From Dehalococcoidia bacterium (GTDB lineage: Bacteria > Chloroflexota > Dehalococcoidia > Lucifugimonadales > UBA3495): a stretch of DNA of 64,000 nucleotides. Of the stretch, positions 30,289 to 40,062 are shown one piece after another. The notes under the pieces were generated by a model, which saw only the letters and a list, made by a program, of their open reading frames with translations, made no database searches and was not told the origin of the DNA. Made by a program: the position numbers and the translations under genes. The first letter of the stretch is position 1. Every line of letters begins with the position of its first letter. The stretch covers positions 642,334-706,333 of the forward strand of contig OZ241860.1 in the NCBI GenBank assembly GCA_965203195.1, read 5' to 3'.

Positions 30289-30605
30289 AACGCACCTTTG
30301 TGACTGCGATTGCGATGGCGGTTTGCGATGGCGGCGTGGCGCCGGCATCGGCAATTGCCGGCATTGTAGCACAACGGATTGCGCGGTTGCCGGCGGCAAA
30401 CCGGAATAAGGATTGCCAGTCCGCCCTGCCGAGCAACCGCGTTGTCGGCGTGTACATTGCCCGCTCCGGTATGACCCGGCAGCAGATGTGCGACCTCATG
30501 CCGCAAGCCGGACGTGCCTTGCCCCTATTGCCCCACGCCCCAAACCCGGCCCGCCACCGCCGAGGTTCCGGCCACGCCATCCGCCCGGCCAAATCACGCG
30601 CCCAC

Positions 30606-30633
30606 TTGCGCCGGCCTCTTTTTGCGCTATAAT
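30606..30633 (+). promoter_or_regulatory. candidate sigma-70 promoter
   Basis: TTGCGC, 16-nt spacer, consensus TATAAT. It lies about 50 nt upstream of the 30685 start. Confidence 0.4.
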
Positions 30634-30684
30634 CGGGCGGCGGGCAGCGTCCAAGACGCCCGCTCAACCCGCCGACTGCGCCGG

Positions 30685-31206
30685 ATGCCGTCAATGCTGG
30701 ACCTGAACGACCTGCCTACTGATTATCCTGGCGGCATCGGCGCCGCCTGGGCGCAAGCCGGGGCCATTTGCCTGGAATCGCAGAACCACACGCCCGGCGT
30801 TGCCCTTGCTGTCCGCGGCAATGCGGACGGCGCCAGTAGCTATCGTTTAAACTGGACGCCTACCGCCAGCGGAGACAACGCGATATGGCAGCACAATCGC
30901 GCCACTGAAATGGGGGCGGAAGCCGTTGCTATTTTGTTGGCCAAGAACGAAACGCCATACTCGGTTGTTGAAGCCGCAACCTCGAGAACAGGCATCGACT
31001 TCTGGCTGGGAGAGGATCCCGATTTTTATTTTCAACGCAAAGCGCGATTGGAAGTATCAGGCATCCGCAGCGGCAGCGACGCCGCGATCGCGAGACGGGT
31101 CAGGGAAAAACTTGTTCAAACGAATCAATCCGACCATTCACAAACTGCCGTCTATGTAATTGTAGTTGAGTTTAGCCGACCCGTGGCTGAAATCCGCGTA
31201 AGATGA
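30685..31206 (+). CDS. hypothetical protein, possible restriction-endonuclease-like (DUF4365-like) fold
   Basis: 173 aa. The pattern ATEMGAEAVAILLA...TGIDFWLGE...ARLEVSGI is reminiscent of a PD-(D/E)xK-type core (D...E-x-[K/S]). Lower-GC region. Confidence 0.35.
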   Translation: MPSMLDLNDLPTDYPGGIGAAWAQAGAICLESQNHTPGVALAVRGNADGASSYRLNWTPTASGDNAIWQHNRATEMGAEAVAILLAKNETPYSVVEAATSRTGIDFWLGEDPDFYFQRKARLEVSGIRSGSDAAIARRVREKLVQTNQSDHSQTAVYVIVVEFSRPVAEIRVR

Positions 31207-31580
31207 GTACTTCAAGAGATTTTCACCACCGCGCAATGGGTTTCGTCGGCCAGGGTTTTATGGCGCAAATGGGCCCCGACCCGGACGCCGCCATACCCCT
31301 CTTTGAGCAGGCCCTGGAGCTGGAGCTGGCCGCCATTGCCGAGCTGCCCGAGCTCGTTGAGCCGACCTACTCGGTGTTGCACCGCAGCGCCGGGTGGATG
31401 GCGTTTCACTGCCGGCAGTTTCGCCAGGCTGAGCGGCTGGCCAGCAAAGCGCTGGCCGGCGAGCCCCCGGCGGACATCGCCGCCGAACTGCGCGACCTCC
31501 TGGAACAATCCAAACTCCAACGGAGCACCGCAGTAACCGCTAACCCGAGCGGTTGCCCGGATCCTCTAGAAAGCGCTTGA
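31203..31580 (+). CDS. hypothetical helical (TPR-like) protein
   Basis: 125 aa. ATGA overlap with the upstream gene. Helical repeat-like composition (AIPLFEQALELE..., FRQAERLASKAL). Confidence 0.4.
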   Translation: MSTSRDFHHRAMGFVGQGFMAQMGPDPDAAIPLFEQALELELAAIAELPELVEPTYSVLHRSAGWMAFHCRQFRQAERLASKALAGEPPADIAAELRDLLEQSKLQRSTAVTANPSGCPDPLESA

Positions 31581-31998
31581 CAACCCGGGCCATCAAAATC
31601 TCGTTTCGGCAGATCAACGCCAGAACCAGCACGACTGCGAAAGTCATAAGCACTACCCAAGCCTGCCACAGCAGGGCGTAGCCGCCAAGAAAAAATCCGG
31701 CGACGGACACGGCCGATACGAACAGGCCGGCGTAAACGCAGTGCATCAAATAGGCCAGGATGTCGTGGTGGTACCCGGTGCGCAGGGCCACCCGCAGCAC
31801 GGTAGAACCGCGCATACCCAGCAGCATATTGCGCTGCGTCGCGGCGAACCCGGCTACGACGATGCCGAATGTCATCGTGCCGGCAGGAAGCGCCTTCGAC
31901 ACCGGGCCAAAGGCACAGGCGAACACAGCGATTGCAGCCAGCATGGCTGCAATCGCCGCTACGCAGAAGGGGAGCACCTTTTCAGTTCTGGCCGACAT
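31540..31998 (-). CDS. hypothetical 4-TM membrane protein
   Basis: 152 aa with four clear hydrophobic helices. Overlaps the upstream 285-aa gene by 17 nt, and overlaps the convergent 31203..31580 gene by 41 nt. Confidence 0.6.
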   Translation of the reverse strand: MSARTEKVLPFCVAAIAAMLAAIAVFACAFGPVSKALPAGTMTFGIVVAGFAATQRNMLLGMRGSTVLRVALRTGYHHDILAYLMHCVYAGLFVSAVSVAGFFLGGYALLWQAWVVLMTFAVVLVLALICRNEILMARVVKRFLEDPGNRSG

Positions 31999-32839
31999 TG
32001 GAGAGAAATTCCTGCCGAATGTCTATGAGAGCCTTCCAGCGTACCTCGTGAGAAACCTTGCGCGTCGCTGGATCAACCGGAAGCATACGGTCTCTCTTCT
32101 CGCGATGCTGAATCAGGTCGATAACCTCGTACCCTTCATCATCGTGCTCTCTGCCCGTAACTTTTAGTTGAGTGACTGTATGATCACCTCCGGAGTTGAG
32201 AATTGCATCTATTGCCTCCCAAACTCGACCGGGGATGAGTGAACGATTTCTCTCGGGTAACGACTTGAGCACAATGTCGATATGCCCGGCACCAAAGCCT
32301 TCGCCAAAGGCTTTAAGTACCCCCATACCAGCATCATGGTCTGCATCTGTGATCGGCCCCATTCCTACGCGGATGGAGAGATTGCGGATTGTTTGATGGC
32401 CACGCGCTCGTGCCGCTGCTTCGTCGTCCAGCCTTGGGGACAACTGGTACGTTCCTTCGCCGGCAAATTCTTCAAAATAGCTGGCAATGGCACCCGACCC
32501 CATTCCCCCTAGAGTGGACTCAACAAATGCCAAGGCAGTCTCCGGATCGTACAGAATGGCCGTGTCGTGCGTGAAGTATTCGTCAGGGTCGAGATCGATA
32601 AGCTCAGCTGGCGTTACCGGCCTGGACCGTCCGGGGCCAGCATATTCAAACGTGAGAAAGTTCAGCAGATAGACACCATCCCGGCGCTCGTCGTGCTCTA
32701 GCCGCCGCCCCTTTCCGTTTGCCACTCGATACCTCATGCCAGGCGGCTGTGCAATGGCGTTGTCCACCGCCGTGCTGAACGGGATCCCCTCCGGGGGCCC
32801 GACATCGTAGATATTGACCCTGAACCGCTTTTCAGGCAT
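31982..32839 (-). CDS. hypothetical 285-aa cytoplasmic protein (no recognised family)
   Basis: Start at MPEKRFRVNIYDV (ATG 32837-32839), 7 nt behind a perfect AGGAGG RBS. Lower GC. I could not find a catalytic motif. Confidence 0.65.
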   Translation of the reverse strand: MPEKRFRVNIYDVGPPEGIPFSTAVDNAIAQPPGMRYRVANGKGRRLEHDERRDGVYLLNFLTFEYAGPGRSRPVTPAELIDLDPDEYFTHDTAILYDPETALAFVESTLGGMGSGAIASYFEEFAGEGTYQLSPRLDDEAAARARGHQTIRNLSIRVGMGPITDADHDAGMGVLKAFGEGFGAGHIDIVLKSLPERNRSLIPGRVWEAIDAILNSGGDHTVTQLKVTGREHDDEGYEVIDLIQHREKRDRMLPVDPATRKVSHEVRWKALIDIRQEFLSNVGQN

Positions 32840-32884
32840 TTCCAGTCCTCCTAAAGGCAGCATTCCGATTGCCAGATAGGCGGC

Positions 32885-32914
32885 AGTATACCCCATCGCT
32901 GCCCTGCTCTGCAA
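32885..32914 (-). promoter_or_regulatory. candidate sigma-70 promoter for the 32839->31540 two-gene cassette
   Basis: Minus strand: TTGCAG, 18-nt spacer, TATACT. A 7-bp inverted repeat (ggcaatt..aattgcc) lies at 32937-32955, just upstream. Confidence 0.45.
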
Positions 32915-33140
32915 CTATTTATTTGACATAATCTGCGGCAATTTTGCCAATTGCCGTACCCTACTTACCTACGCCCCACACACGGCCTACCGCCGCCGCG
33001 ATGCGGCCCGCCATCCGTTCCGCCAAGCCGCGCGCCTGTTCTACCGCCGCAGCCTCCGCTTCCAGCTCGGACACTATGGCCTGCTGGACGGCAAGCGGCG
33101 GACAGGGCGATGGGTATGGCCGCAATGTCACGCTGGGCGT

Positions 33141-33449
33141 CTAGAGCGGTACTCCGACGAATTTGATAAGCCGTGAGGCGACCGCCCAAGTGATGCCTGC
33201 TGACAGTAAGAAGCCTGCACCATACACCATCAGGATATTCCCAATGGCATAGCGACCATCGGAACGTTCTATCAGCAATGACGCAGCGCGGCGGGTAACT
33301 GCATGAACTGTGTTCCAGGTTGCCAGGTAAGTCCCGATGACAAAGAACTTTCCCCAAGCATCGTTGCCTTCCATTGCCAGGAGCACAGCCCCTACGAACA
33401 GTGCAATGGTCAGTCCAGCGGACCCCAAATGCAGTGCTATATTAGCCAT
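33141..33449 (-). CDS. hypothetical small 3-TM membrane protein
   Basis: ORF trimmed to MANIALH behind a GAGGAGG RBS, 102 aa. It starts 40 nt downstream of the hsdM-S stop. Confidence 0.5.
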   Translation of the reverse strand: MANIALHLGSAGLTIALFVGAVLLAMEGNDAWGKFFVIGTYLATWNTVHAVTRRAASLLIERSDGRYAIGNILMVYGAGFLLSAGITWAVASRLIKFVGVPL

Positions 33450-33489
33450 CTGGAACCTCCTCAGTGCGCGATGACGTACCAAGCTTCGT

Positions 33490-35418
33490 TCAGCGTTCCC
33501 ACACACGTTCTATTGCCACGTCAATCTCTGCTTCAGTTTGCTTGATGAGTTGACTCGCCTCGTCAATCACCCGCTGATACCCCTCAATCTCCGCCACCAG
33601 CTCCCGCTGCATCTCCGGCGGCGGCAATGGGATTGTGATGTTGCCGATTTCACGGCTAATCCCGCCGATAATGCCCTTGATGTACGGGCGCAAAATCTCC
33701 TGGAAGCCGTTACTGCTGATGATTGAGTAAAGGTAATACGGCAGTATGCCGTCCTGCGCCCGGATGATAAAGACGTGCTCATTTACCGCCGCCGGCATAT
33801 CGTAAGCGAAATACCCGCATTTTCCGGTAGTCGCGCCATCTTTGACCAGCATAGTATCCCCGAGTTGCAGTATGCCTTTTTTCATACCACTGAAATGCGC
33901 TTCGGATACGAACTTCATCTTGTCAAAACGAATTGAACCATCCGGCGCAATCTGCTCGCCGCCGATGCTGGGAATGCCCTCGCCGACGGCACCGCCCTTT
34001 TGGCGCGAGCCGCTTTCTATCGTTGCGACTTTATTCAACTCAACCATTGGCCATTGTGCAGCAGTCGGCTTATCCTGCTGATACCGCTCCCCTCTCAAGC
34101 CATACTCTCCGTCCGCCGCAATCCGCTCCTTGTCCACCACCAGCCCCAGCGTAGGCCGGTAATCGTCCAGCGCTATGCCCTGCCGCACCCGGCGCAGGTA
34201 TTCGGTCAGCTCGGCCTGGGCGGTGGGCAGGTCGTTGTCCGCAACGGGGCGGCGTTGTGCGCCCAGGTCGTAGCCGTCGCTGGCAATCTTGAAGAAGGCG
34301 ATGCCGTGCGCGCGCGGCGCCAGGGTCCGGTCCAGTATCAGGATGGAGGTTTTGACGCCGCTGTAGGGCTGGAACACGCCGGCGGGCAGCGACACTACGG
34401 CCACCAGATAGTCCGCCACCAGCAGGCGGCGCAGCTGCGTGTGCCCGCGCTGGCTCTGGAAGATGACGCCCTCCGGCACGATGACGCCGGCCCGTCCGCC
34501 GGGCGTAAGATGTTCGGCAATATAGTCCACAAACAACACTTCGCTGCGGCGGGATGGCACCGAAAAGCGCTGGTGGGGCCGGATGCCGCCTTTGGGGGAC
34601 ATAAAGGGCGGGTTGGCCATAATCACATCGGCAAAGTCCTGCCAGCGTTCCTCACTGGTCAGGGTGTCATATTCATAGATCTGCGGGTCGGCAAACCCGT
34701 GCAGATACATATTGACCAGCGACAGGCGCACCAGATCCGGCGACAGGTCATAGCCGTGCAGGTTGCCGGCCAGCCGCCGCCTTTCGTCGGGCGTCAGGGC
34801 AACGGCGCCGTTGGCGTCGGTATTGGCGGCCAGAATATGCTTGTAGGCGGAGATTAGAAAGCCGGCCGTGCCGCAGGCGGGATCCAGAATAGTTTCATCT
34901 TTTTTAGGGTCAATAACGGCCACGATAAAGTCAATAATATGGCGGGGCGTGCGGAACTGCCCGGCGTCGCCTTGCGCGTCCAGCGCCGCCAGCAGACTCT
35001 CAAAAGCGTCGCCCAGGCTTTCGGAGTCATCGTAGCTGAATTCGTCGATGACCTTGAGAAACTCGCGCAGGGTTTCCGGGTCGCGGTAGGGCAGATAAGC
35101 GTTGCTGAAGATGTTGCGGAACAGGGGCGGCAGGCCGGGGTTTTCGGGCATCCGGTAGATGGCCTCGGCGTAGCGGTTGAGCATTTCCTGCCCGCCGAGG
35201 CCGGCGCGCAGCAGCTGCGCCCAGCCGTAGTGGGCAAAGTCGCCGGCGAAGAACTTGCGCTGTCCGCCCAGTTCCTCGCTCTGGGCGTCCATATCGTCCA
35301 TAAACTTGTAGATGAGGGCAATAGTGATTTGCTCCACCTGGCTTTTGGGGTCGGGCACGCGGCCCACCAGAATGTTGCGCGCAGTGTCAATGCGGCGCTT
35401 GGTAACGGCGTCCAGCAT
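33490..35418 (-). CDS. hsdM: Type I restriction-modification methyltransferase fused to a single-TRD specificity module (HsdM-HsdS fusion)
   Basis: 642 aa. HsdM-type N-terminus (ARNILVGRVPDPKSQVEQITIALIYKFM), AdoMet motif DPACGTAGF and catalytic NPPF. The C-terminal 200 aa look like one HsdS target-recognition domain (GDTMLVKDGATTGK..., IPLPPPEMQRELVAEIE). Confidence 0.85.
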   Translation of the reverse strand: MLDAVTKRRIDTARNILVGRVPDPKSQVEQITIALIYKFMDDMDAQSEELGGQRKFFAGDFAHYGWAQLLRAGLGGQEMLNRYAEAIYRMPENPGLPPLFRNIFSNAYLPYRDPETLREFLKVIDEFSYDDSESLGDAFESLLAALDAQGDAGQFRTPRHIIDFIVAVIDPKKDETILDPACGTAGFLISAYKHILAANTDANGAVALTPDERRRLAGNLHGYDLSPDLVRLSLVNMYLHGFADPQIYEYDTLTSEERWQDFADVIMANPPFMSPKGGIRPHQRFSVPSRRSEVLFVDYIAEHLTPGGRAGVIVPEGVIFQSQRGHTQLRRLLVADYLVAVVSLPAGVFQPYSGVKTSILILDRTLAPRAHGIAFFKIASDGYDLGAQRRPVADNDLPTAQAELTEYLRRVRQGIALDDYRPTLGLVVDKERIAADGEYGLRGERYQQDKPTAAQWPMVELNKVATIESGSRQKGGAVGEGIPSIGGEQIAPDGSIRFDKMKFVSEAHFSGMKKGILQLGDTMLVKDGATTGKCGYFAYDMPAAVNEHVFIIRAQDGILPYYLYSIISSNGFQEILRPYIKGIIGGISREIGNITIPLPPPEMQRELVAEIEGYQRVIDEASQLIKQTEAEIDVAIERVWER

Positions 35419-35427
35419 AGCAACCTC

Positions 35428-38004
35428 CTAGGCGGCGAACTGGTTCAAGGATATGTAACCCTTAATGTATTCGGGTATGGCGATGCGGTACTGCTCCGGC
35501 ACCTGGCGCAGTTGCTCCAGGTTGAATTCGGGGTTGGTGGCCAGGTCGGTGAACTCCCGGCGGTCGATGATGTCCCGCATCCGGTTGCTGGCGGCGTAGG
35601 ATTTGAAGAAGGCGCGCATTGCCGGCAGGCTGGTGGCGGCGTCAACCTCAACCCGGCGGTCGGCGACGAACTTGGCGAACTCCTCATCCAGCAGTTCGTC
35701 TTTGGACTTGAACCTGGGTATCAGCTCAAAGACCAGTGACAGTATCTCTTTAATGTCCAAACGGCGGTCGGCGGCGACGGCGCGGCGCAGTTTTTCCAGC
35801 GTGTAGTAATCCTCGGGCCGGTTCAGCACTTCCCGGTTCACATAGTCAATCACGCTGTCCCATTGCCCGTCATCCACCGCCCGGGCGATAAAGGCGTCGT
35901 TCCGCACAGTATCGGCAAAGCGGTCAAAGAACATCCGGTCAATCCGCATTCCCTGGTAGCCAATCTGCCGCTCGCTGATGGACGCCAGGGCGTCGGCGCC
36001 GCGATGGATGTACACGCCGGGCGGCGGATGAGGCCCGCCGGCGTCGTTGCCGTTGCCGTTGTCGCCGCCGCTGCCCTGGCGGGGGAGCGCCAGTGTTTCG
36101 TCGTAGTTGAATTCGGTCTCAAAATACTCGCAATTGGCGAAGAAGTCAAAGAGCTTGAAGGCCGTCTTTTCGGCGGTTCCGGTGTCCGCCGGCCGGCTTT
36201 CGTCTTGCCGGCTTTCGTCTTGCCGGCCGGAGTTCCGCAGCAGGTCCAGGAAGTTATGGCGCCGGGTGCCGCGCCCCTTGATTTGGATAAAGTCGGTGGG
36301 CGAAAAGACGGGCCGGAACAGGCCCAGGTTCAGCAGGTCGGGGCAGTCGTAGCCGGTGGTCATCATTCCTACGGTGACGCACAAGCGCGCCTTGCTGGTG
36401 CGATATTCCGGCAGAAAGTTGCCGGCGCCCAGCAGGTTGTTGTTGGCGAACCGGATGGCGAGCTGCTGCGCTTCCGGAACCTGCGAAGTAACCTGCACCG
36501 CAAAGTCCGACTGATACTTGCCGGGATACATCAGGTGGGCGATTTCGTTGAATATGTTGGTCAGCCGGGCGGCATGGCTTTGGCTGACGGCAAAGACAAC
36601 CGACTTGCCGATTTCGCCGCTCACCGGATCCAGCAGGGCGTTTTCCAGAAAGGTCCGGCAGAAGAGACGGTTGGTGTCCGCGGAGAAGAATCGGTTCTCA
36701 AAGTCCCGATGTTCGTAGCTTTCCGTGCCCTCAGCTCCGGTTTCCTGGTCGGTGAATGCAACCCGGAAACCCTGTTGGGAGAGCAGCTGCGTAGTGGTGT
36801 CGGTGCGGGCGTCCACTACGATGGGGTTGATCAGCACGCCGTCCCGTACGCCGTCCACCAGTGAGTAGCGGAAAGTGGGTTCGCCGCTTTCGCAGCCGAA
36901 AGTGCGGTAGGTGTCCAGCAGCAGCCGGCGCTCTTTTGCGCGCGGGTCATCTGCTGCCGCTACTGCCGGCGCGCCGCGCAGGTAGTCGCGGGGCGTTGCG
37001 GTCAGCCCCAGCTTGTACCCCACGAAATAGTCAAACACGGCGCGGGCGTTGCCGCTGATGGAACGGTGCGCTTCGTCCGAAATCACCAGGTCAAAATCCG
37101 TGGGCGAAAACAGATCCCGGTACTTGTTGTTGAACAGCAGCGACTGGACGGTAGTGACCACGATTTCGGCGCGCCGCCAGTCATCCCGCCGTTCCTTGTA
37201 AATCACGGCGGTGAAGTCATTGGCGAGCAGATCGCGAAACACCTTGTCCGCCTGGTTTTCCAGTTCCAGCCGGTCCACCAGGAACAGAACCCGCCGCGCG
37301 TTGCCCGTCCGCAGAAACAGTTTGATGACGGCGGCGGCTACCAGCGTTTTGCCGGCGCCGGTAGCCATTTCAAACAGAAAGCGGTCATTGCCGGCGTGGA
37401 CGGCCCGCTGCAAGGCGTGGACGGCGCGCAGCTGGTAGTCGCGCAGGAAACGCAGCCCGCGCTCCCGGATGAAGCCGGGGCGTTCCGCGGCGTTGCGCCA
37501 GGCGGCTTGCGCGGCATAACTGGCGTACTGCGTCAATGCGATATAGTCGTCGTCAACTCTTTCGTCCACCAGCCGCTGCGGGTTGGGCGTAATCCGCCGG
37601 TATCGGCCTACCGAGTCGGGCGCCGGAAACGCGGTGATGATGTGGGGGCTGCCGCGTTTCAGATCCCAGAAGTAATGCAGGTTGCCGTTGGATAATATGA
37701 CGAACCGGCAGTTCAGCGCGCGGGCGTAGCGGCGGGCCTGCTCCTTGCCGGCCAGGGGTTCTATCGCTTCCGACTTGGCTTCCAGTACTACCAACGGGAA
37801 GCCGCGGTCGTCCAGCAGCAGGAAGTCGACGAACCCTCTGGGGTTGCCCTCAAAATCGGCGCCCAGTCCGTCCAGGTCGGAGCGGGACAGGGCTGCATTC
37901 GGTTCCAGACGGATGTTGGCCGGCCCGTTGTCGTCGTCAAAGAACTTCCAGCCGGCCGCTTTCAGCATCCGGTTGATTTTAATGCGGGCAGTGGCTTCGT
38001 TCAT
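35428..38004 (-). CDS. hsdR: Type I restriction enzyme R subunit (HsdR-like SF2 helicase-nuclease)
   Basis: Start at MNEATARIKINR. N-terminal nuclease core FVDFLLLDD...VVLEAKSE, helicase motif I MATGAGKT and motif II DEAH (VISDEAHRS). 858 aa. Confidence 0.85.
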   Translation of the reverse strand: MNEATARIKINRMLKAAGWKFFDDDNGPANIRLEPNAALSRSDLDGLGADFEGNPRGFVDFLLLDDRGFPLVVLEAKSEAIEPLAGKEQARRYARALNCRFVILSNGNLHYFWDLKRGSPHIITAFPAPDSVGRYRRITPNPQRLVDERVDDDYIALTQYASYAAQAAWRNAAERPGFIRERGLRFLRDYQLRAVHALQRAVHAGNDRFLFEMATGAGKTLVAAAVIKLFLRTGNARRVLFLVDRLELENQADKVFRDLLANDFTAVIYKERRDDWRRAEIVVTTVQSLLFNNKYRDLFSPTDFDLVISDEAHRSISGNARAVFDYFVGYKLGLTATPRDYLRGAPAVAAADDPRAKERRLLLDTYRTFGCESGEPTFRYSLVDGVRDGVLINPIVVDARTDTTTQLLSQQGFRVAFTDQETGAEGTESYEHRDFENRFFSADTNRLFCRTFLENALLDPVSGEIGKSVVFAVSQSHAARLTNIFNEIAHLMYPGKYQSDFAVQVTSQVPEAQQLAIRFANNNLLGAGNFLPEYRTSKARLCVTVGMMTTGYDCPDLLNLGLFRPVFSPTDFIQIKGRGTRRHNFLDLLRNSGRQDESRQDESRPADTGTAEKTAFKLFDFFANCEYFETEFNYDETLALPRQGSGGDNGNGNDAGGPHPPPGVYIHRGADALASISERQIGYQGMRIDRMFFDRFADTVRNDAFIARAVDDGQWDSVIDYVNREVLNRPEDYYTLEKLRRAVAADRRLDIKEILSLVFELIPRFKSKDELLDEEFAKFVADRRVEVDAATSLPAMRAFFKSYAASNRMRDIIDRREFTDLATNPEFNLEQLRQVPEQYRIAIPEYIKGYISLNQFAA

Positions 38005-38038
38005 CTTGGGCGCCCCTGAAAGGCCAGGCACTGTGCCG

Positions 38039-38246: not shown

Positions 38247-38333
38247 CGGCCGCAGCGCAAGGCGTGGCTATCCCGTGATATTATTGGTGGGGCAGTGGTC
38301 CGGTCAAACTGCCTGTTCCTGTCCCGAGCGATT

Positions 38334-39539
38334 ATGAATGCTGCCGCCGACAACCATCCCGCAACGCCGGCGCCGGCATCCGCCAGCGCCGGTCAGCGCG
38401 CCACCGCCCGCGTGCCGGTGGCGCCGGTCGTGTTGCGCTGGGCGATGGCGCGCTCCGGCAAAGACCCGGCGGCGCTGCATCAGCGATTCGTCAAGTTGGA
38501 CGCCTGGGAACGGGGCGAAACAGCCCCTACCCTCCATCAGCTGGAGGATTTCGCCAGGGCCACTTATGTGCCCGTGGGCTATCTGTTCCTCCCGGAACCG
38601 CCGGATGAGGAAATGCCAATCCCCGACCTGCGTACCATTGACGGCCAGGGCGTCGGACATCCCAGCGCCAACCTGCTGGACACCATTTACATCTGCCAGC
38701 GGCGGCAGGATTGGTATCGCGAGTATGCGCTGTCCATCGGAGAGGAGCCGCTGGCCTTTATCGGCTCGGCAAGCCTCAACAGCCCGGCCGGGGAGACGGC
38801 CGCCAGGATGCGGCAGGATTTGAACCTGGACACCGATAGGTGGCGCCGGCACTCCGGTTGGGAGGAATCCATGCGGGATTTTATTGACCAGGTTGAGGAC
38901 GCCGGCATACTGGTGATGGTCAGCGGCATTGTGGGCAATAATACCAGACGGAAGCTGGAACCGCAGGAGTTTCGCGGGTTTGCGCTGTGCGACGATCTGG
39001 CTCCGCTGGTGTTTATCAACAATGCCGATGCCAGGGCGGCGCAGATGTTCACGCTGGCCCACGAACTGGCGCACTTGTGGCACGGGGTATCGGCTCTCTC
39101 CGATGCCAGCCCAAGGCCGGCGCCGGATCGTCGTGTGGAAGCGTGGTGCAACGGCGTGGCGGCAGAACTGCTGCTGCCGCTGGCAGAACTGGAGCAAATC
39201 CTGCCACCCGGCAGCAACCCGGTAGATGAAATCCAAAATATCCGGCGTCGTTTTAAGGTTAGCAGTCTGGTCGTCTTGCGCTGTCTTTATGAAGCCGGCC
39301 GGCTGTCCGATGACGAATTTGAGCAGGCTTATGATACCGAGCGGCAACGGATTCGGCCCCAGTCAGGCAGTGGTGGCAACTTTTACCCGACACTGATGGC
39401 GCGGGTAGGTCGTCGCTTCGCGCTAGCGGTGGTGCGAAACGCTGCCGCCGGCGAAACCCTGTACCGGGACGCTTACGGGCTCCTCGGCATCAAAAAAACG
39501 GCCACTTTCAACGAACTGCGCGCGCAGTTAGGATGTTAG
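38334..39539 (+). CDS. XRE-type HTH + ImmA/IrrE family metallopeptidase
   Basis: Start at MNAAADN. An HTH-like N-terminal region is followed by the zinc motif HELAHLWHG (HExxH). 401 aa. Confidence 0.75.
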   Translation: MNAAADNHPATPAPASASAGQRATARVPVAPVVLRWAMARSGKDPAALHQRFVKLDAWERGETAPTLHQLEDFARATYVPVGYLFLPEPPDEEMPIPDLRTIDGQGVGHPSANLLDTIYICQRRQDWYREYALSIGEEPLAFIGSASLNSPAGETAARMRQDLNLDTDRWRRHSGWEESMRDFIDQVEDAGILVMVSGIVGNNTRRKLEPQEFRGFALCDDLAPLVFINNADARAAQMFTLAHELAHLWHGVSALSDASPRPAPDRRVEAWCNGVAAELLLPLAELEQILPPGSNPVDEIQNIRRRFKVSSLVVLRCLYEAGRLSDDEFEQAYDTERQRIRPQSGSGGNFYPTLMARVGRRFALAVVRNAAAGETLYRDAYGLLGIKKTATFNELRAQLGC

Positions 39540-39543
39540 CCCG

Positions 39544-40062
39544 ATGGCCTACGTCGTGGACAGCAACGGCTTTATTCAAGCCGACAATCTTTATTACAGC
39601 AGGGATTTCTGCCCGGCGTACTGGGATTGGCTACAAGCAGAGGGGCAAGCCGGCCGGGTTATCAGCATAGACCGGGTCTATACCGAAATTCAGGCGAAAC
39701 AGGATGACCTCGCTCAGTGGGCGTCCCGGCCGGAAGTGCGCGGCCTGTTCCTGCCTTCCGGCGATGCGGCAACGGTGGCAGCTTTCAGGCGTATCGTTGC
39801 TTGGGTGCAATCCCGCCAGCGCAATGACGGCAGCCAATTTTACCGCAATGCGGCGCGGAACGATTTCTTTGGCGGCGGGGCGGATCCATACCTCATTGCC
39901 TACGCCCTGGCGCAAGGTCATACCGTTGTAACCGTAGAAGGCAACAACCCGGCGAACCGGAGCAAAGCCCTCATTCCGGTCGTTTGCGACGGACTTGATG
40001 TAGAATGGGTTTCGATTTTTGATCTGCTGCGTCGCGAACAGGCCCGGTTTGTGCTGGGCTGA
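39544..40062 (+). CDS. DUF4411 family (PIN-like) protein
   Basis: 172 aa. The N-terminus MAYVVDSNGFIQADNLYYSRDFCPAYWDWL is typical of DUF4411. It starts 4 nt after the ImmA-like stop. Confidence 0.65.
   Translation: MAYVVDSNGFIQADNLYYSRDFCPAYWDWLQAEGQAGRVISIDRVYTEIQAKQDDLAQWASRPEVRGLFLPSGDAATVAAFRRIVAWVQSRQRNDGSQFYRNAARNDFFGGGADPYLIAYALAQGHTVVTVEGNNPANRSKALIPVVCDGLDVEWVSIFDLLRREQARFVLG

What the first reader, a model, noticed from the sequence alone, without database searches (positions are those of the whole stretch)
31540..32914. Self-contained two-gene cassette (unknown 285-aa protein + 4-TM protein) directly downstream of a Type I R-M system
A TTGCAG-N18-TATACT promoter and a perfect AGGAGG RBS precede a 285-aa ORF (MPEKRFRVNIYDV...). 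I cannot assign this ORF to any family. Its last 17 nt overlap the start of a 152-aa protein with four hydrophobic helices. The cassette is visibly A/T-richer than the core genome. It runs co-directionally after hsdR, hsdM-S and a small 3-TM gene.

A soluble sensor/effector paired with a small multi-TM protein is the typical layout of abortive-infection modules. Kiwa, for example, pairs a TM protein with a roughly 300-aa protein, but in the opposite gene order. I cannot assert homology to Kiwa.
Basis: partly seen in the sequence, partly recalled or inferred. Interest (0 to 1): 0.66.

Follow-up and report, generated by a model that had tools for sequence, protein, structure and literature searches.

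The report
Distant RexAB-like phage-exclusion gene pair
The two-gene cassette is real and is most likely a very distant relative of phage lambda's RexA/RexB abortive-infection system, sitting in a chromosomal defence island directly behind a Type I restriction system rather than in a prophage.

Summary
The cassette exists as described, on the minus strand. ORF-A (285 aa, 31982-32839) overlaps ORF-B (152 aa, four helices, 31540-31998) by 17 nt, with a perfect RBS, a conserved promoter-like motif and lower G+C than the core genome.

ORF-A is not an orphan. It belongs to Pfam DUF6731, about 1,500 clusters at 50% identity, with no papers found. Its AlphaFold model has the RexA/RdgC fold; lambda RexA is the top PDB hit. 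Sequence profiles do not link it to RexA.

ORF-B belongs to a membrane-protein family found immediately downstream of DUF6731 genes in 55 of 56 loci examined. Distant members match RexB models directly. Sizes, gene order, overlap and predicted topology match lambda rexA-rexB.

Close relatives lie directly behind restriction systems: Type I, Type ISP and Type II. Prophage-borne relatives lie behind CI/Cro-type repressors, as in lambda.

Best reading: a RexAB-type abortive-infection module, with a DNA-binding sensor and a membrane effector. Function is inferred, not shown. Kiwa membership is rejected. This is a new member of a known kind, of moderate interest. The conserved linkage to restriction systems is the open question.

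The parts
32885..32914 (-). Promoter-like element: TTGCAG (32914-32909), 18-nt spacer, TATACT (32890-32885)
   Evidence: Read directly from the sequence. The generic sigma-70 scan is negative. The TTGCG-N17/18-TAnAnT motif is conserved upstream of the homologous gene in 10 loci with unrelated upstream genes.
32847..32852 (-). Ribosome-binding site AGGAGG, 7 nt upstream of the ORF-A ATG
31982..32839 (-). ORF-A, 285 aa: DUF6731 family protein with a RexA/RdgC-like fold; proposed soluble DNA-binding sensor
   Evidence: Pfam PF20505, E 2e-17, 64 bits against a cut-off of 27. phrog_10865. 66 homologues. AlphaFold pLDDT 83. Foldseek top PDB hits are lambda RexA 8twq (E 6e-6) and RdgC 2owl (E 3e-5). 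dN/dS about 0.25.
31540..31998 (-). ORF-B, 152 aa: four-helix inner-membrane protein; remote RexB relative; proposed membrane effector
   Evidence: 110 homologues, none with a Pfam family. AlphaFold pLDDT 86, four long helices. Same family as the partners of distant DUF6731 genes (hhalign probability 99.6%). Five of 29 of those partners hit PADLOC RexB, best E 7.7e-6. hhalign of the partner family against the RexB family gives 67% probability and score 35, against controls of 18 or less.
31982..31998 (-). 17-nt overlap of the ORF-A stop and the ORF-B start (translational coupling)
   Evidence: Overlaps of 1, 4 or 17 nt are conserved in related loci.
33490..35418 (-). Context: Type I hsdM-hsdS fusion (642 aa, only one target-recognition domain)
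   Evidence: Pfam N6_Mtase and Methylase_S; PADLOC MTase_I and Specificity_I. The orthologue in syntenic L013 is 813 aa with two recognition domains.
35428..38031 (-). Context: Type I hsdR
   Evidence: Pfam HSDR_N and ResIII; PADLOC REase_I.
32961..33131 (-). Context: out-of-frame remnant of the conserved C-terminal helix of hsdS
   Evidence: tblastn of L013 HsdM-S residues 767-812: 93% identity, in a different frame.
33141..33506 (-).
   Evidence: No family hits. No homologue in any related locus except the identical contig L012. Occupies the position of hsdS recognition domain 2.

Best explanation
The cassette is a distant RexAB-type two-component phage-exclusion (abortive-infection) module.

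ORF-A is a cytoplasmic protein with the RexA/RdgC fold. It has a split globular domain and an inserted dimerisation domain. It probably dimerises, binds DNA or a phage-made DNA-protein complex, and acts as the infection sensor.

ORF-B is a four-helix inner-membrane protein with both termini and a conserved Arg-rich central loop on the cytoplasmic side. It is probably kept silent until ORF-A activates it. It would then compromise the membrane (depolarisation or leak, ATP loss), arresting the infected cell and aborting phage growth.

The pair is expressed from its own conserved promoter-like element and is translationally coupled, which would fix the A:B ratio.

- **Shown here:** family membership, fold similarity, obligate gene pairing, remote RexB homology of the partner family, defence and prophage-immunity contexts, and purifying selection.
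- **Inferred:** DNA binding, A-B interaction, membrane damage and any anti-phage phenotype.
For: 1. **Fold of ORF-A.** The AlphaFold model (pLDDT 83, pTM 0.72) has lambda RexA (8twq) as its best PDB match over the full length (Foldseek E 6e-6, probability 1.0). E. coli RdgC comes next (E 3e-5). RexA is published as RdgC-like (PMC11077077).
2. **Topology of ORF-A.** The order of secondary-structure elements fits the published RexA plan of residues 1-139, 143-234 and 248-279:
   - an N-terminal sheet with helices (residues 3-135);
   - an inserted unit of four strands and four helices (141-241);
   - a return strand and a long C-terminal helix (248-282).
3. **Architecture.** ORF-A is 285 aa followed by ORF-B at 152 aa with four helices. 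Lambda has RexA at 279 aa followed by RexB at 144 aa with four transmembrane helices.
4. **Obligate pairing.**
   - An ORF-B homologue lies directly after the A gene in 19 of 19 close loci.
   - A 136-186-aa multi-TM ORF follows in 36 of 37 distant loci.
   - The same is true in Aeribacillus phage AP45 and on a Niallia plasmid.
5. **RexB link by sequence.**
   - ORF-B's family and the distant partners are one family (hhalign 99.6%, E 9e-24).
   - Five of 29 partners hit PADLOC's RexB model (best E 7.7e-6).
   - A RexB HMM built here aligns end to end with several partners.
   - Profile-profile comparison gives score 35 and 67% probability. The reversed control scores 16 and the maximum of 30 shuffles is 18.
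6. **Context like lambda.** Prophage-borne family members sit directly behind S24/HTH CI-type repressors and Cro-type genes.
7. **Defence context.**
   - Close relatives sit directly behind Type I R-M (window, L001, L003, L013, L016, L017).
   - Others sit behind Type ISP (L014).
   - L002 has a methyltransferase plus a His-Me nuclease upstream.
   - L021 has an EcoO109I-type R-M next to it.
   - The Niallia plasmid copy is next to a Type I system.
   - Of 53 distant DUF6731 proteins, 37 partly match PADLOC's defence candidate PDC-M67A.
8. **Precedent.** The P. putida RexAB-type system was assigned on the same kind of evidence, remote and structural for A and none for B. It was then shown to defend against phage through RexB-dependent membrane damage (PMC12894663).
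Against: - No sequence-level link between DUF6731 and RexA was found:
  - hhalign probability is 7% or lower;
  - a RexA HMM scores at background;
  - ORF-A does not hit Pfam RexA or PADLOC RexA.
- The fold match has low global TM-scores (0.31 to RexA, 0.39 to RdgC). I attribute this to domain hinging but did not test it domain by domain.
- ORF-B itself does not hit any RexB model; the link is transitive.
- Four-helix membrane proteins are prone to spurious similarity, although the controls argue against that here.
- The window copy is not in a prophage.
- No experiment exists for any DUF6731 pair ('DUF6731' returned 0 papers).
- Even for lambda Rex, the trigger and the role of DNA binding in exclusion are unresolved (PMC11077077).
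Confidence: 0.6

Rival explanations
1. Same two proteins, opposite polarity, as in Kiwa or the mycobacteriophage Butters gp30/gp31 system. The membrane protein ORF-B would be the sensor or the sequestering anchor. The DNA-binding ORF-A would be the effector, released on infection to bind phage DNA and block replication or late expression.
For: ORF-A has a DNA-clamp-like RdgC/RexA fold. It has many invariant Arg/Lys residues (R46, R146, R260; K43, R45, R71, R144, R152, R230, R246, R267). In Butters the RexA-like protein is the effector and the RexB-like protein only sequesters it (PMC12894663, discussion). In Kiwa the membrane protein senses and the soluble KwaB binds DNA (PMC13276650).
Against: There is no KwaA, KwaB or DUF4868 match, and the gene order is opposite to Kiwa. 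Four of the five described Rex-like systems use the membrane protein as effector (PMC12894663). Nothing in the sequence decides the polarity.
Confidence: 0.12
2. The pair is a functional accessory of the upstream restriction enzyme: a second-line guard comparable to PrrC with EcoprrI. It would trigger membrane-mediated abortive infection when restriction is inhibited by a phage anti-restriction protein, or when restriction products accumulate.
For: The block hsdR, hsdM-S, A, B is conserved in six Dehalococcoidia lineages even though A identity falls to 57%. Independent juxtapositions occur with Type ISP, with two Type II systems, and with a separate-subunit Type I system on a Bacillota plasmid.
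Against: The cassette has its own conserved promoter-like element. It also occurs alone between housekeeping genes (L005, L006, L008), among transposases (L018) and in prophage immunity regions. It is therefore autonomous and mobile. Clustering of unrelated defence systems in islands is common and needs no functional coupling.
Confidence: 0.1
3. Not an immune system. It could be an RdgC-like DNA-metabolism or nucleoid protein with a membrane tether. Alternatively it could be a toxin-antitoxin-like addiction pair that stabilises the mobile island. In prophages it could be a modulator of the lysis-lysogeny switch, as RexA is in lambda.
For: RdgC is a recombination-associated DNA-binding protein and is the second-best fold match. 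Lambda RexA has a RexB-independent role in the CI-Cro switch (PMC11077077). Many family members sit beside repressors.
Against: The window copy has no prophage and no repressor beside it. The patchy, horizontally scattered distribution across Chloroflexota, Paracoccaceae, Bacillota, phages and a plasmid is typical of defence cargo, not housekeeping. So are the lower G+C and the defence-island setting.
Confidence: 0.1

Closest known systems
Phage lambda RexA/RexB exclusion system (Pfam PF15969/PF15968; PADLOC RexA/RexB)
   Same: - Gene order is soluble then membrane protein.
- Sizes are 285/152 aa here against 279/144 aa in lambda.
- The A protein has a RexA/RdgC-type predicted fold with the same domain plan.
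- The B protein has four helices, with predicted cytoplasmic termini and central loop.
- The B family shows remote sequence similarity to RexB.
- Prophage-borne relatives sit behind a CI-type repressor.
   Different: - There is no detectable A-level sequence similarity.
- ORF-B is linked to RexB only through intermediate family members.
- The window copy is chromosomal. It lies in a defence island behind a Type I R-M system, not in a prophage immunity region.
- The two genes overlap by 17 nt here. In lambda a 15-nt gap separates them.
- The host is a marine-type Dehalococcoidia (Chloroflexota), not an enterobacterium.
RexAB-type systems recognised by structure or architecture: P. putida RexABpp (PP_5643/5644), Sbash gp30/gp31, CarolAnn gp44/gp43 (PMC12894663, PMC6426596)
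   Same: These were also assigned to the Rex type without ordinary sequence similarity, and they have the same two-gene plan. A 165-aa Sbash protein is the fourth-best BFVD fold match of ORF-B (TM-score 0.63). I could not confirm that it is gp31. The central cytoplasmic loop is the most conserved part of B, as reported for Sbash gp31.
   Different: - All five described systems are prophage-encoded.
- The actinophage RexA-like proteins are longer (337-372 aa).
Pfam DUF6731 (PF20505), phrog_10865 and PADLOC candidate PDC-M67A
   Same: ORF-A is a bona fide DUF6731 member. Distant DUF6731 proteins partly match PDC-M67A (37 of 53).
   Different: These entries carry no function. ORF-A itself does not reach PDC-M67A at E 0.1 or better. 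No paper mentions either name.
Kiwa (KwaA four-TM protein plus KwaB, DUF4868)
   Same: A small four-TM protein paired with a DNA-binding protein of about 300 aa, found in defence islands.
   Different: The gene order is opposite. There is no KwaA, KwaB or DUF4868 profile match. No Kiwa chain is among the 50 listed PDB fold matches.
PrrC anticodon nuclease embedded in the EcoprrI Type I R-M locus
   Same: An abortive-infection function physically linked to a Type I restriction locus.
   Different: The protein is unrelated (an ATPase-nuclease). PrrC is embedded between the hsd genes and regulated by them. Here the pair is downstream, has its own promoter-like element, and also occurs without R-M.

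Membership tests
RexAB-type phage exclusion system | Two adjacent co-directional genes: a soluble protein of about 280-370 aa followed by a four-TM protein of about 140-170 aa | tested here: met
   285 aa then 152 aa with a 17-nt overlap. The pairing holds in 19 of 19 close loci and 36 of 37 distant loci.
RexAB-type phage exclusion system | The A protein has the RexA fold: a split globular domain with an inserted four-strand, four-helix dimerisation domain and a C-terminal helix (RdgC-like) | tested here: met
   This applies to a predicted structure only. Foldseek places 8twq first (E 6e-6, probability 1.0, TM-score 0.31) and RdgC second. The order of secondary-structure elements matches the published topology.
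RexAB-type phage exclusion system | The A protein matches RexA sequence models (Pfam PF15969, PADLOC RexA) | tested here: not met
   No hit at E 0.1 or better. hhalign of a 125-sequence DUF6731 profile against five RexA sequences gives 7% probability. A RexA HMM scores at background. The lambda RexA control hits both models.
RexAB-type phage exclusion system | The B protein is homologous to RexB (Pfam PF15968, PADLOC RexB) | tested here: inconclusive
   ORF-B itself has no hit. Its family joins the distant partners at 99.6%. Five of 29 of those partners hit PADLOC RexB at up to 7.7e-6. Profile-profile comparison gives 67% probability and score 35, against controls of 18 or less.
RexAB-type phage exclusion system | The B protein has four TM helices with cytoplasmic N- and C-termini and a functionally important central cytoplasmic loop | tested here: met
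   This is a prediction only. The model has four long helices. Positive charges cluster at the N-terminus, in the loop at 55-75 and in the C-terminal tail. The invariant GF.ATQRN and RNE motifs flank the cytoplasmic segments.
RexAB-type phage exclusion system | Location in a prophage immunity region next to a CI-type repressor | tested here: not met
   The window copy lies between core genes, behind a Type I R-M system, with no prophage genes nearby. The feature is met by distant family members L048, L065, L027 and L035.
RexAB-type phage exclusion system | A dimerises and binds DNA; A interacts with or activates B; B damages or depolarises the membrane; the pair excludes phage | not testable with these tools
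   These need biochemistry and phage assays. No DUF6731 pair has been studied.
Pfam DUF6731 (PF20505) | Score above the family's gathering threshold | tested here: met
   64.1 bits against a cut-off of 27; E 2e-17; residues 50-266. All 65 homologues with a recorded Pfam annotation carry PF20505.
Kiwa | KwaA and KwaB (DUF4868) profile matches, with gene order kwaA then kwaB | tested here: not met
   No PADLOC or Pfam hit for either protein at E 0.1 or better. The order here is soluble protein first.
PADLOC candidate system PDC-M67 | Match to the PDC-M67A model | tested here: not met
   ORF-A has no hit at E 0.1 or better. Of 53 distant DUF6731 relatives, 37 match a segment of about 50 residues (best E 8e-10). 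The families are therefore related, but the window protein is outside the model's reach.
RdgC (recombination-associated protein) | Sequence membership in the RdgC family | tested here: not met
   No Pfam RdgC hit. The resemblance is by fold only (2owl, E 3e-5).

The most novel reading that the evidence does not exclude
The RexAB-like pair is not merely parked next to the restriction genes but wired to them. It would be a membrane-acting second line that fires when the upstream Type I or Type ISP enzyme is blocked by a phage anti-restriction protein, or when it senses restriction-generated DNA ends through its RdgC-like DNA clamp. That would be a PrrC-like 'guard of restriction' built from a Rex module. 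It would also make DUF6731 pairs a large, unrecognised Rex superfamily spanning Chloroflexota, Proteobacteria, Bacillota and their phages.
Probability: 0.12. Interest if true: 0.75.

Novelty: new member of a known kind. Interest (0 to 1): 0.45.

Why it matters
Only five Rex-like systems have been described, and all are in prophages (PMC12894663). If this reading holds, the uncharacterised Pfam family DUF6731 and its unnamed membrane partner form a Rex-type superfamily. A profile search finds about 1,500 clusters at 50% identity. Neither window protein hits any PADLOC model.

The family occurs in:
- prophage immunity regions;
- a plasmid;
- chromosomal defence islands, including those of uncultured marine-type Dehalococcoidia/SAR202.

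This would give a functional annotation to a widespread DUF. It would add a membrane-acting abortive-infection system to the known defences of an environmentally abundant phylum. It would also supply many natural variants for working out how RexA-like sensors activate RexB-like effectors, which is still unresolved 70 years after the rII experiments.

The recurrent position directly behind restriction enzymes of several types is a testable lead on cooperation between first-line and abortive defences.

Tried and rejected
- **Direct family searches.** ORF-A and ORF-B had no hits in NCBIfam or PADLOC. ORF-B had none in PHROGs either. Pfam gave nothing credible for ORF-B: only a chance BTB_KLHL33 hit at E 0.026, below its cut-off.
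- **Kiwa.** Rejected.
- **hmmsearch of DUF6731 profiles against PDB sequences.** Nothing relevant.
- **hhalign against single lambda sequences.** The close-family profiles against RexA, and against RexB alone or its low-diversity family, showed no signal. A signal appeared only after widening the partner profile with distant loci.
- **Widening the DUF6731 profile.** This did not link A to RexA. Scores of 27 and 18 compare with a reversed control of 15-16. The A assignment therefore rests on predicted structure.
- **The search for related loci with the very diverse alignment A4.** It failed for lack of a conserved stretch. A 12-sequence subset (A5) worked.
- **Generic sigma-70 and terminator scan.** No promoter was reported, and the terminator-like sites were at chance level.
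- **Sbash gp31.** I tried to confirm that the Sbash protein matching ORF-B by fold is gp31. The paper gives no length or accession, and a guessed accession turned out to be another phage. This remains unverified.
- **P. putida RexApp.** I could not obtain its sequence to test whether it is a DUF6731 member.
- **Prophage origin of the window copy.** Considered and rejected. The flanks are core genes syntenic with L013, and no phage genes are present.
Full report
**1. Observation**

The cassette lies on the minus strand.
- ORF-A runs from the ATG at 32839 to the stop at 31982 (285 aa, MPEKRFRVNIYDV...).
- ORF-B runs from 31998 to 31540 (152 aa).
- They overlap by 17 nt.
- AGGAGG sits 7 nt before the ORF-A ATG.
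- TTGCAG-N18-TATACT lies at 32914-32885.

A generic sigma-70 scan does not report this site, because its -35 hexamer matches only 3 of 6. I aligned the 150 nt upstream of the homologous gene from ten other loci. These have different upstream genes and otherwise unalignable spacers. The same TTGCG-N17/18-TAnAnT arrangement appears at the same distance from the start codon. The promoter call is therefore supported by conservation rather than by consensus strength.

G+C is 53-60% over the cassette, against 62-74% in the core genes to its left. A longer TTG start (310 aa) is possible. The family N-terminus MP.K.F is conserved in 40 homologues, which favours the 285-aa form. Both genes evolve under purifying selection: dN/dS is 0.24-0.25 for A and 0.17-0.29 for B, measured against three relatives.

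**2. ORF-A is not an orphan**

- It matches Pfam DUF6731 (PF20505) at E 2e-17, well above the curated threshold, and the unannotated phrog_10865.
- It has no NCBIfam or PADLOC match.
- The word-indexed search found 66 homologues. The 65 with a recorded annotation all carry PF20505, and none has a name.
- An exhaustive profile search of 1.84 billion representatives found 1,497 clusters at E 1e-3 or better, and 738 at 1e-10 or better.
- 'DUF6731' occurs in no paper of the library.

**3. Fold of ORF-A**

An AlphaFold model built on 40 homologues is confident (pLDDT 83, pTM 0.72). The best PDB matches are:
- phage lambda RexA (8twq), E 6e-6, probability 1.0, aligned over the whole length;
- E. coli RdgC (2owl), E 3e-5.

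The global TM-scores are low (0.31 and 0.39). RexA is a hinged two-domain protein crystallised in a closed state (PMC11077077), so a rigid superposition is expected to be poor. I could not run a domain-wise comparison.

The order of elements in the model reproduces the published RexA plan:
- a sheet with flanking helices (residues 3-135);
- an inserted unit of four strands and four helices (141-241);
- a return strand and a long C-terminal helix (248-282).

The published plan is a split globular domain (1-139 plus 248-279), a dimerisation domain of four strands and four helices (143-234), and a terminal helix alpha-8.

Sequence profiles do not connect DUF6731 to RexA:
- hhalign of a 125-sequence profile against five RexA sequences gave 7% probability (score 27, against 15 for the reversed control).
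- A second alignment gave background scores.
- A RexA HMM found nothing.

The A-level assignment is therefore structural only.

**4. ORF-B and the pairing**

ORF-B has 110 homologues and no Pfam family. Its model (pLDDT 86) shows four long helices, a short helix in the central loop and an amphipathic C-terminal extension.

Positive charges sit at the N-terminus, in the loop at 55-75 and in the tail. This predicts cytoplasmic termini and a cytoplasmic central loop, the topology described for RexB and Sbash gp31 (PMC6426596). The invariant residues cluster at the ends of helices 2 and 4 (TFG..GF.ATQRN and RNE).

The partner accompanies the A gene everywhere:
- An ORF-B homologue follows the DUF6731 gene in 19 of 19 close loci.
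- A 136-186-aa multi-TM ORF follows within -91 to +18 nt in 36 of 37 distant loci from IMG/VR and metagenomes.
- The same holds in Aeribacillus phage AP45 (gp35/gp36) and on a Niallia plasmid.

The close and distant partners are one family (hhalign 99.6%, E 9e-24).

**5. Link of the partner family to RexB**

- With only the close family, no similarity to RexB was seen.
- With the distant partners, hhalign against a 13-sequence RexB alignment gave 67% probability and score 35 over 70 collinear columns. These columns cover helix 1, the loop, helix 2 and the cytoplasmic loop, including the YGY/sGY motif.
- The reversed control scored 16, and the best of 30 column shuffles scored 18.
- Independently, PADLOC's own RexB model hits 5 of 29 partner proteins (best E 7.7e-6).
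- A RexB HMM built here aligns end to end (model positions 3-138) with several partners.
- Lambda RexA and RexB hit the PADLOC and Pfam Rex models as positive controls.

ORF-B is thus a remote, transitively linked RexB relative.

By fold, the best BFVD match of ORF-B comes from the same uncultured siphovirus (ctylc9) that provides the best BFVD match of ORF-A. The fourth-best match is a 165-aa protein of mycobacteriophage Sbash (TM-score 0.63). Sbash gp30/gp31 is an experimentally proven Rex-like system, but I could not verify that this protein is gp31.

**6. Genomic context**

*Close relatives (39-82% identity), mostly Dehalococcoidia/SAR202, other Chloroflexota and Paracoccaceae MAGs:*

| Context | Loci |
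|---|---|
| Directly downstream of, and co-directional with, a Type I hsdR plus hsdM-S fusion | window, L001, L003, L013, L016, L017 |
| Downstream of a 1,637-aa Type ISP enzyme | L014 (L015 carries the same A and B behind a truncated 1,195-aa ORF) |
| Downstream of a methyltransferase plus a His-Me nuclease | L002 |
| Beside an EcoO109I-type R-M | L021 |
| Alone between housekeeping genes | L005, L006, L008 |
| Among transposases | L018 |
| Next to a terminase-like gene and HigBA-like genes | L004 |
| Split by an inserted gene | L011 |

A 22%-identical copy on a Bacillota plasmid is immediately followed by hsdM, hsdS and hsdR.

*Distant, virus-derived loci:* the commonest neighbour families are HTH_3, HTH_31, Peptidase_S24, P22_Cro, integrase and tail or lysis genes. 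An S24 or HTH repressor-like gene lies directly upstream and co-directional in L048, L027 and L035. A full CI-like gene lies two genes upstream in L065. This is the lambda cI-rexA-rexB layout.

The family therefore behaves as mobile cargo of defence islands and prophage immunity regions. Of 53 distant DUF6731 proteins, 37 partly match PADLOC's unvalidated defence candidate PDC-M67A. ORF-A does not.

**7. The window's island**

Compared with the syntenic relative L013 (A 82% and B 97% identical), the island lies between a luciferase-like monooxygenase gene and the Zn-ribbon/TMP-TENI genes.

- In L013 it holds an XcyI-type R-M, the Type I system and the pair.
- In the window the XcyI genes are replaced by a Peptidase_M78 (ImmA/IrrE-like) gene plus a DUF4411 gene.
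- The window's hsdM-S has a different first recognition domain and ends after the central conserved region.
- The second recognition domain is replaced by about 450 bp carrying the 121-aa hydrophobic ORF.
- The conserved C-terminal helix of hsdS survives as an out-of-frame remnant at 32961-33131.

**8. Mechanism**

The best-supported model is that of lambda Rex and of the P. putida and actinophage Rex-like systems. A cytoplasmic dimeric DNA-binding sensor (A) detects an infection-specific cue. It then activates a four-helix membrane protein (B). The resulting depolarisation or leak and ATP loss arrest the cell and abort the infection (PMC11077077, PMC12894663, PMC6426596). The 17-nt overlap would couple translation and fix stoichiometry, which matters in lambda and P. 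putida (PMC12894663).

Everything past fold, family and context is inference. The polarity could be reversed, as in Butters or Kiwa. The recurrent position behind restriction enzymes could reflect functional coupling rather than island clustering. I rate the Rex-type model at 0.6 and the rivals at about 0.1 each.

**9. Comparison and novelty**

The pair is not a member of the RexA or RexB sequence families as currently modelled, and it is not Kiwa. It is a DUF6731 member and, by architecture, fold, topology, transitive RexB similarity and family context, a RexAB-type system.

That makes it a new and very divergent member of a known kind, in a new setting: chromosomal, linked to R-M, in Chloroflexota. 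The wider point, that DUF6731 plus its partner form a large unrecognised Rex-like superfamily, appears unreported in the searched literature. Interest is moderate at 0.45.

Noticed in passing
window 32961-34081 (minus strand): The hsdM-hsdS fusion is remodelled relative to the syntenic relative L013. The first recognition domain is swapped. The reading frame ends after the central conserved region (642 aa against 813 aa). The second recognition domain is replaced by about 450 bp carrying a unique 121-aa hydrophobic ORF (33141-33506). The conserved C-terminal helix of hsdS is left as an out-of-frame remnant (32961-33131). The enzyme may work as a half-S dimer or be defective.
   Followed up: partly
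window 38295-40062 (plus strand): Divergent from hsdR is a Peptidase_M78 (ImmA/IrrE-like) gene of 414 aa. It hits the PADLOC RmrA and capP models. It is followed by a DUF4411 gene of 172 aa. In syntenic L013 this slot holds an XcyI-type restriction gene, a 474-aa gene and a 104-aa gene instead. The stretch of about 30.5-40.1 kb is therefore a variable defence island between conserved core genes.
   Followed up: partly
window 30514-31580 (plus strand): Two small genes (230 aa or shorter, and 125 aa) overlap each other by 4 nt and converge on the cassette. The second overlaps the 3' end of ORF-B by 41 nt. Both are conserved in L013 (169 and 125 aa). There are no family hits beyond faint TPR matches, and their function is unknown.
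   Followed up: no
window 31540-32839 compared with L013 10001-11315: Divergence is asymmetric within the pair between two syntenic genomes. ORF-A is 82% identical (dS 0.36) and ORF-B is 97% identical (dS 0.08). This suggests recombination inside the cassette or faster turnover of the putative sensor.
   Followed up: no
L011 10001-12865: In one Dehalococcoidia MAG the DUF6731 gene is split by an inserted segment carrying a 471-aa ORF. The 3' part of the gene and the membrane partner follow the insert. This copy is an inactivated one.
   Followed up: no
L024 (Niallia plasmid NZ_CP137637, 101152-109392) and L023 (Aeribacillus phage AP45, gp35-gp36): Very distant DUF6731 plus membrane-partner pairs occur in Bacillota. 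On the plasmid the pair sits immediately upstream of hsdM-hsdS-hsdR. In the temperate phage it sits near HicAB and a NERD-domain gene, just before the terminase genes.
   Followed up: partly
loci L026-L065 (partner proteins, alignment A8): Two or three of the membrane partners also hit PADLOC candidate models PDC-M18B (best E 4e-5). This hints that another unvalidated PADLOC candidate system shares this membrane component.
   Followed up: no
L016 6770-7147: In one relative, a PDDEXK_3 gene of 125 aa is inserted between hsdR and hsdM-S of the Type I system that precedes the pair.
   Followed up: no
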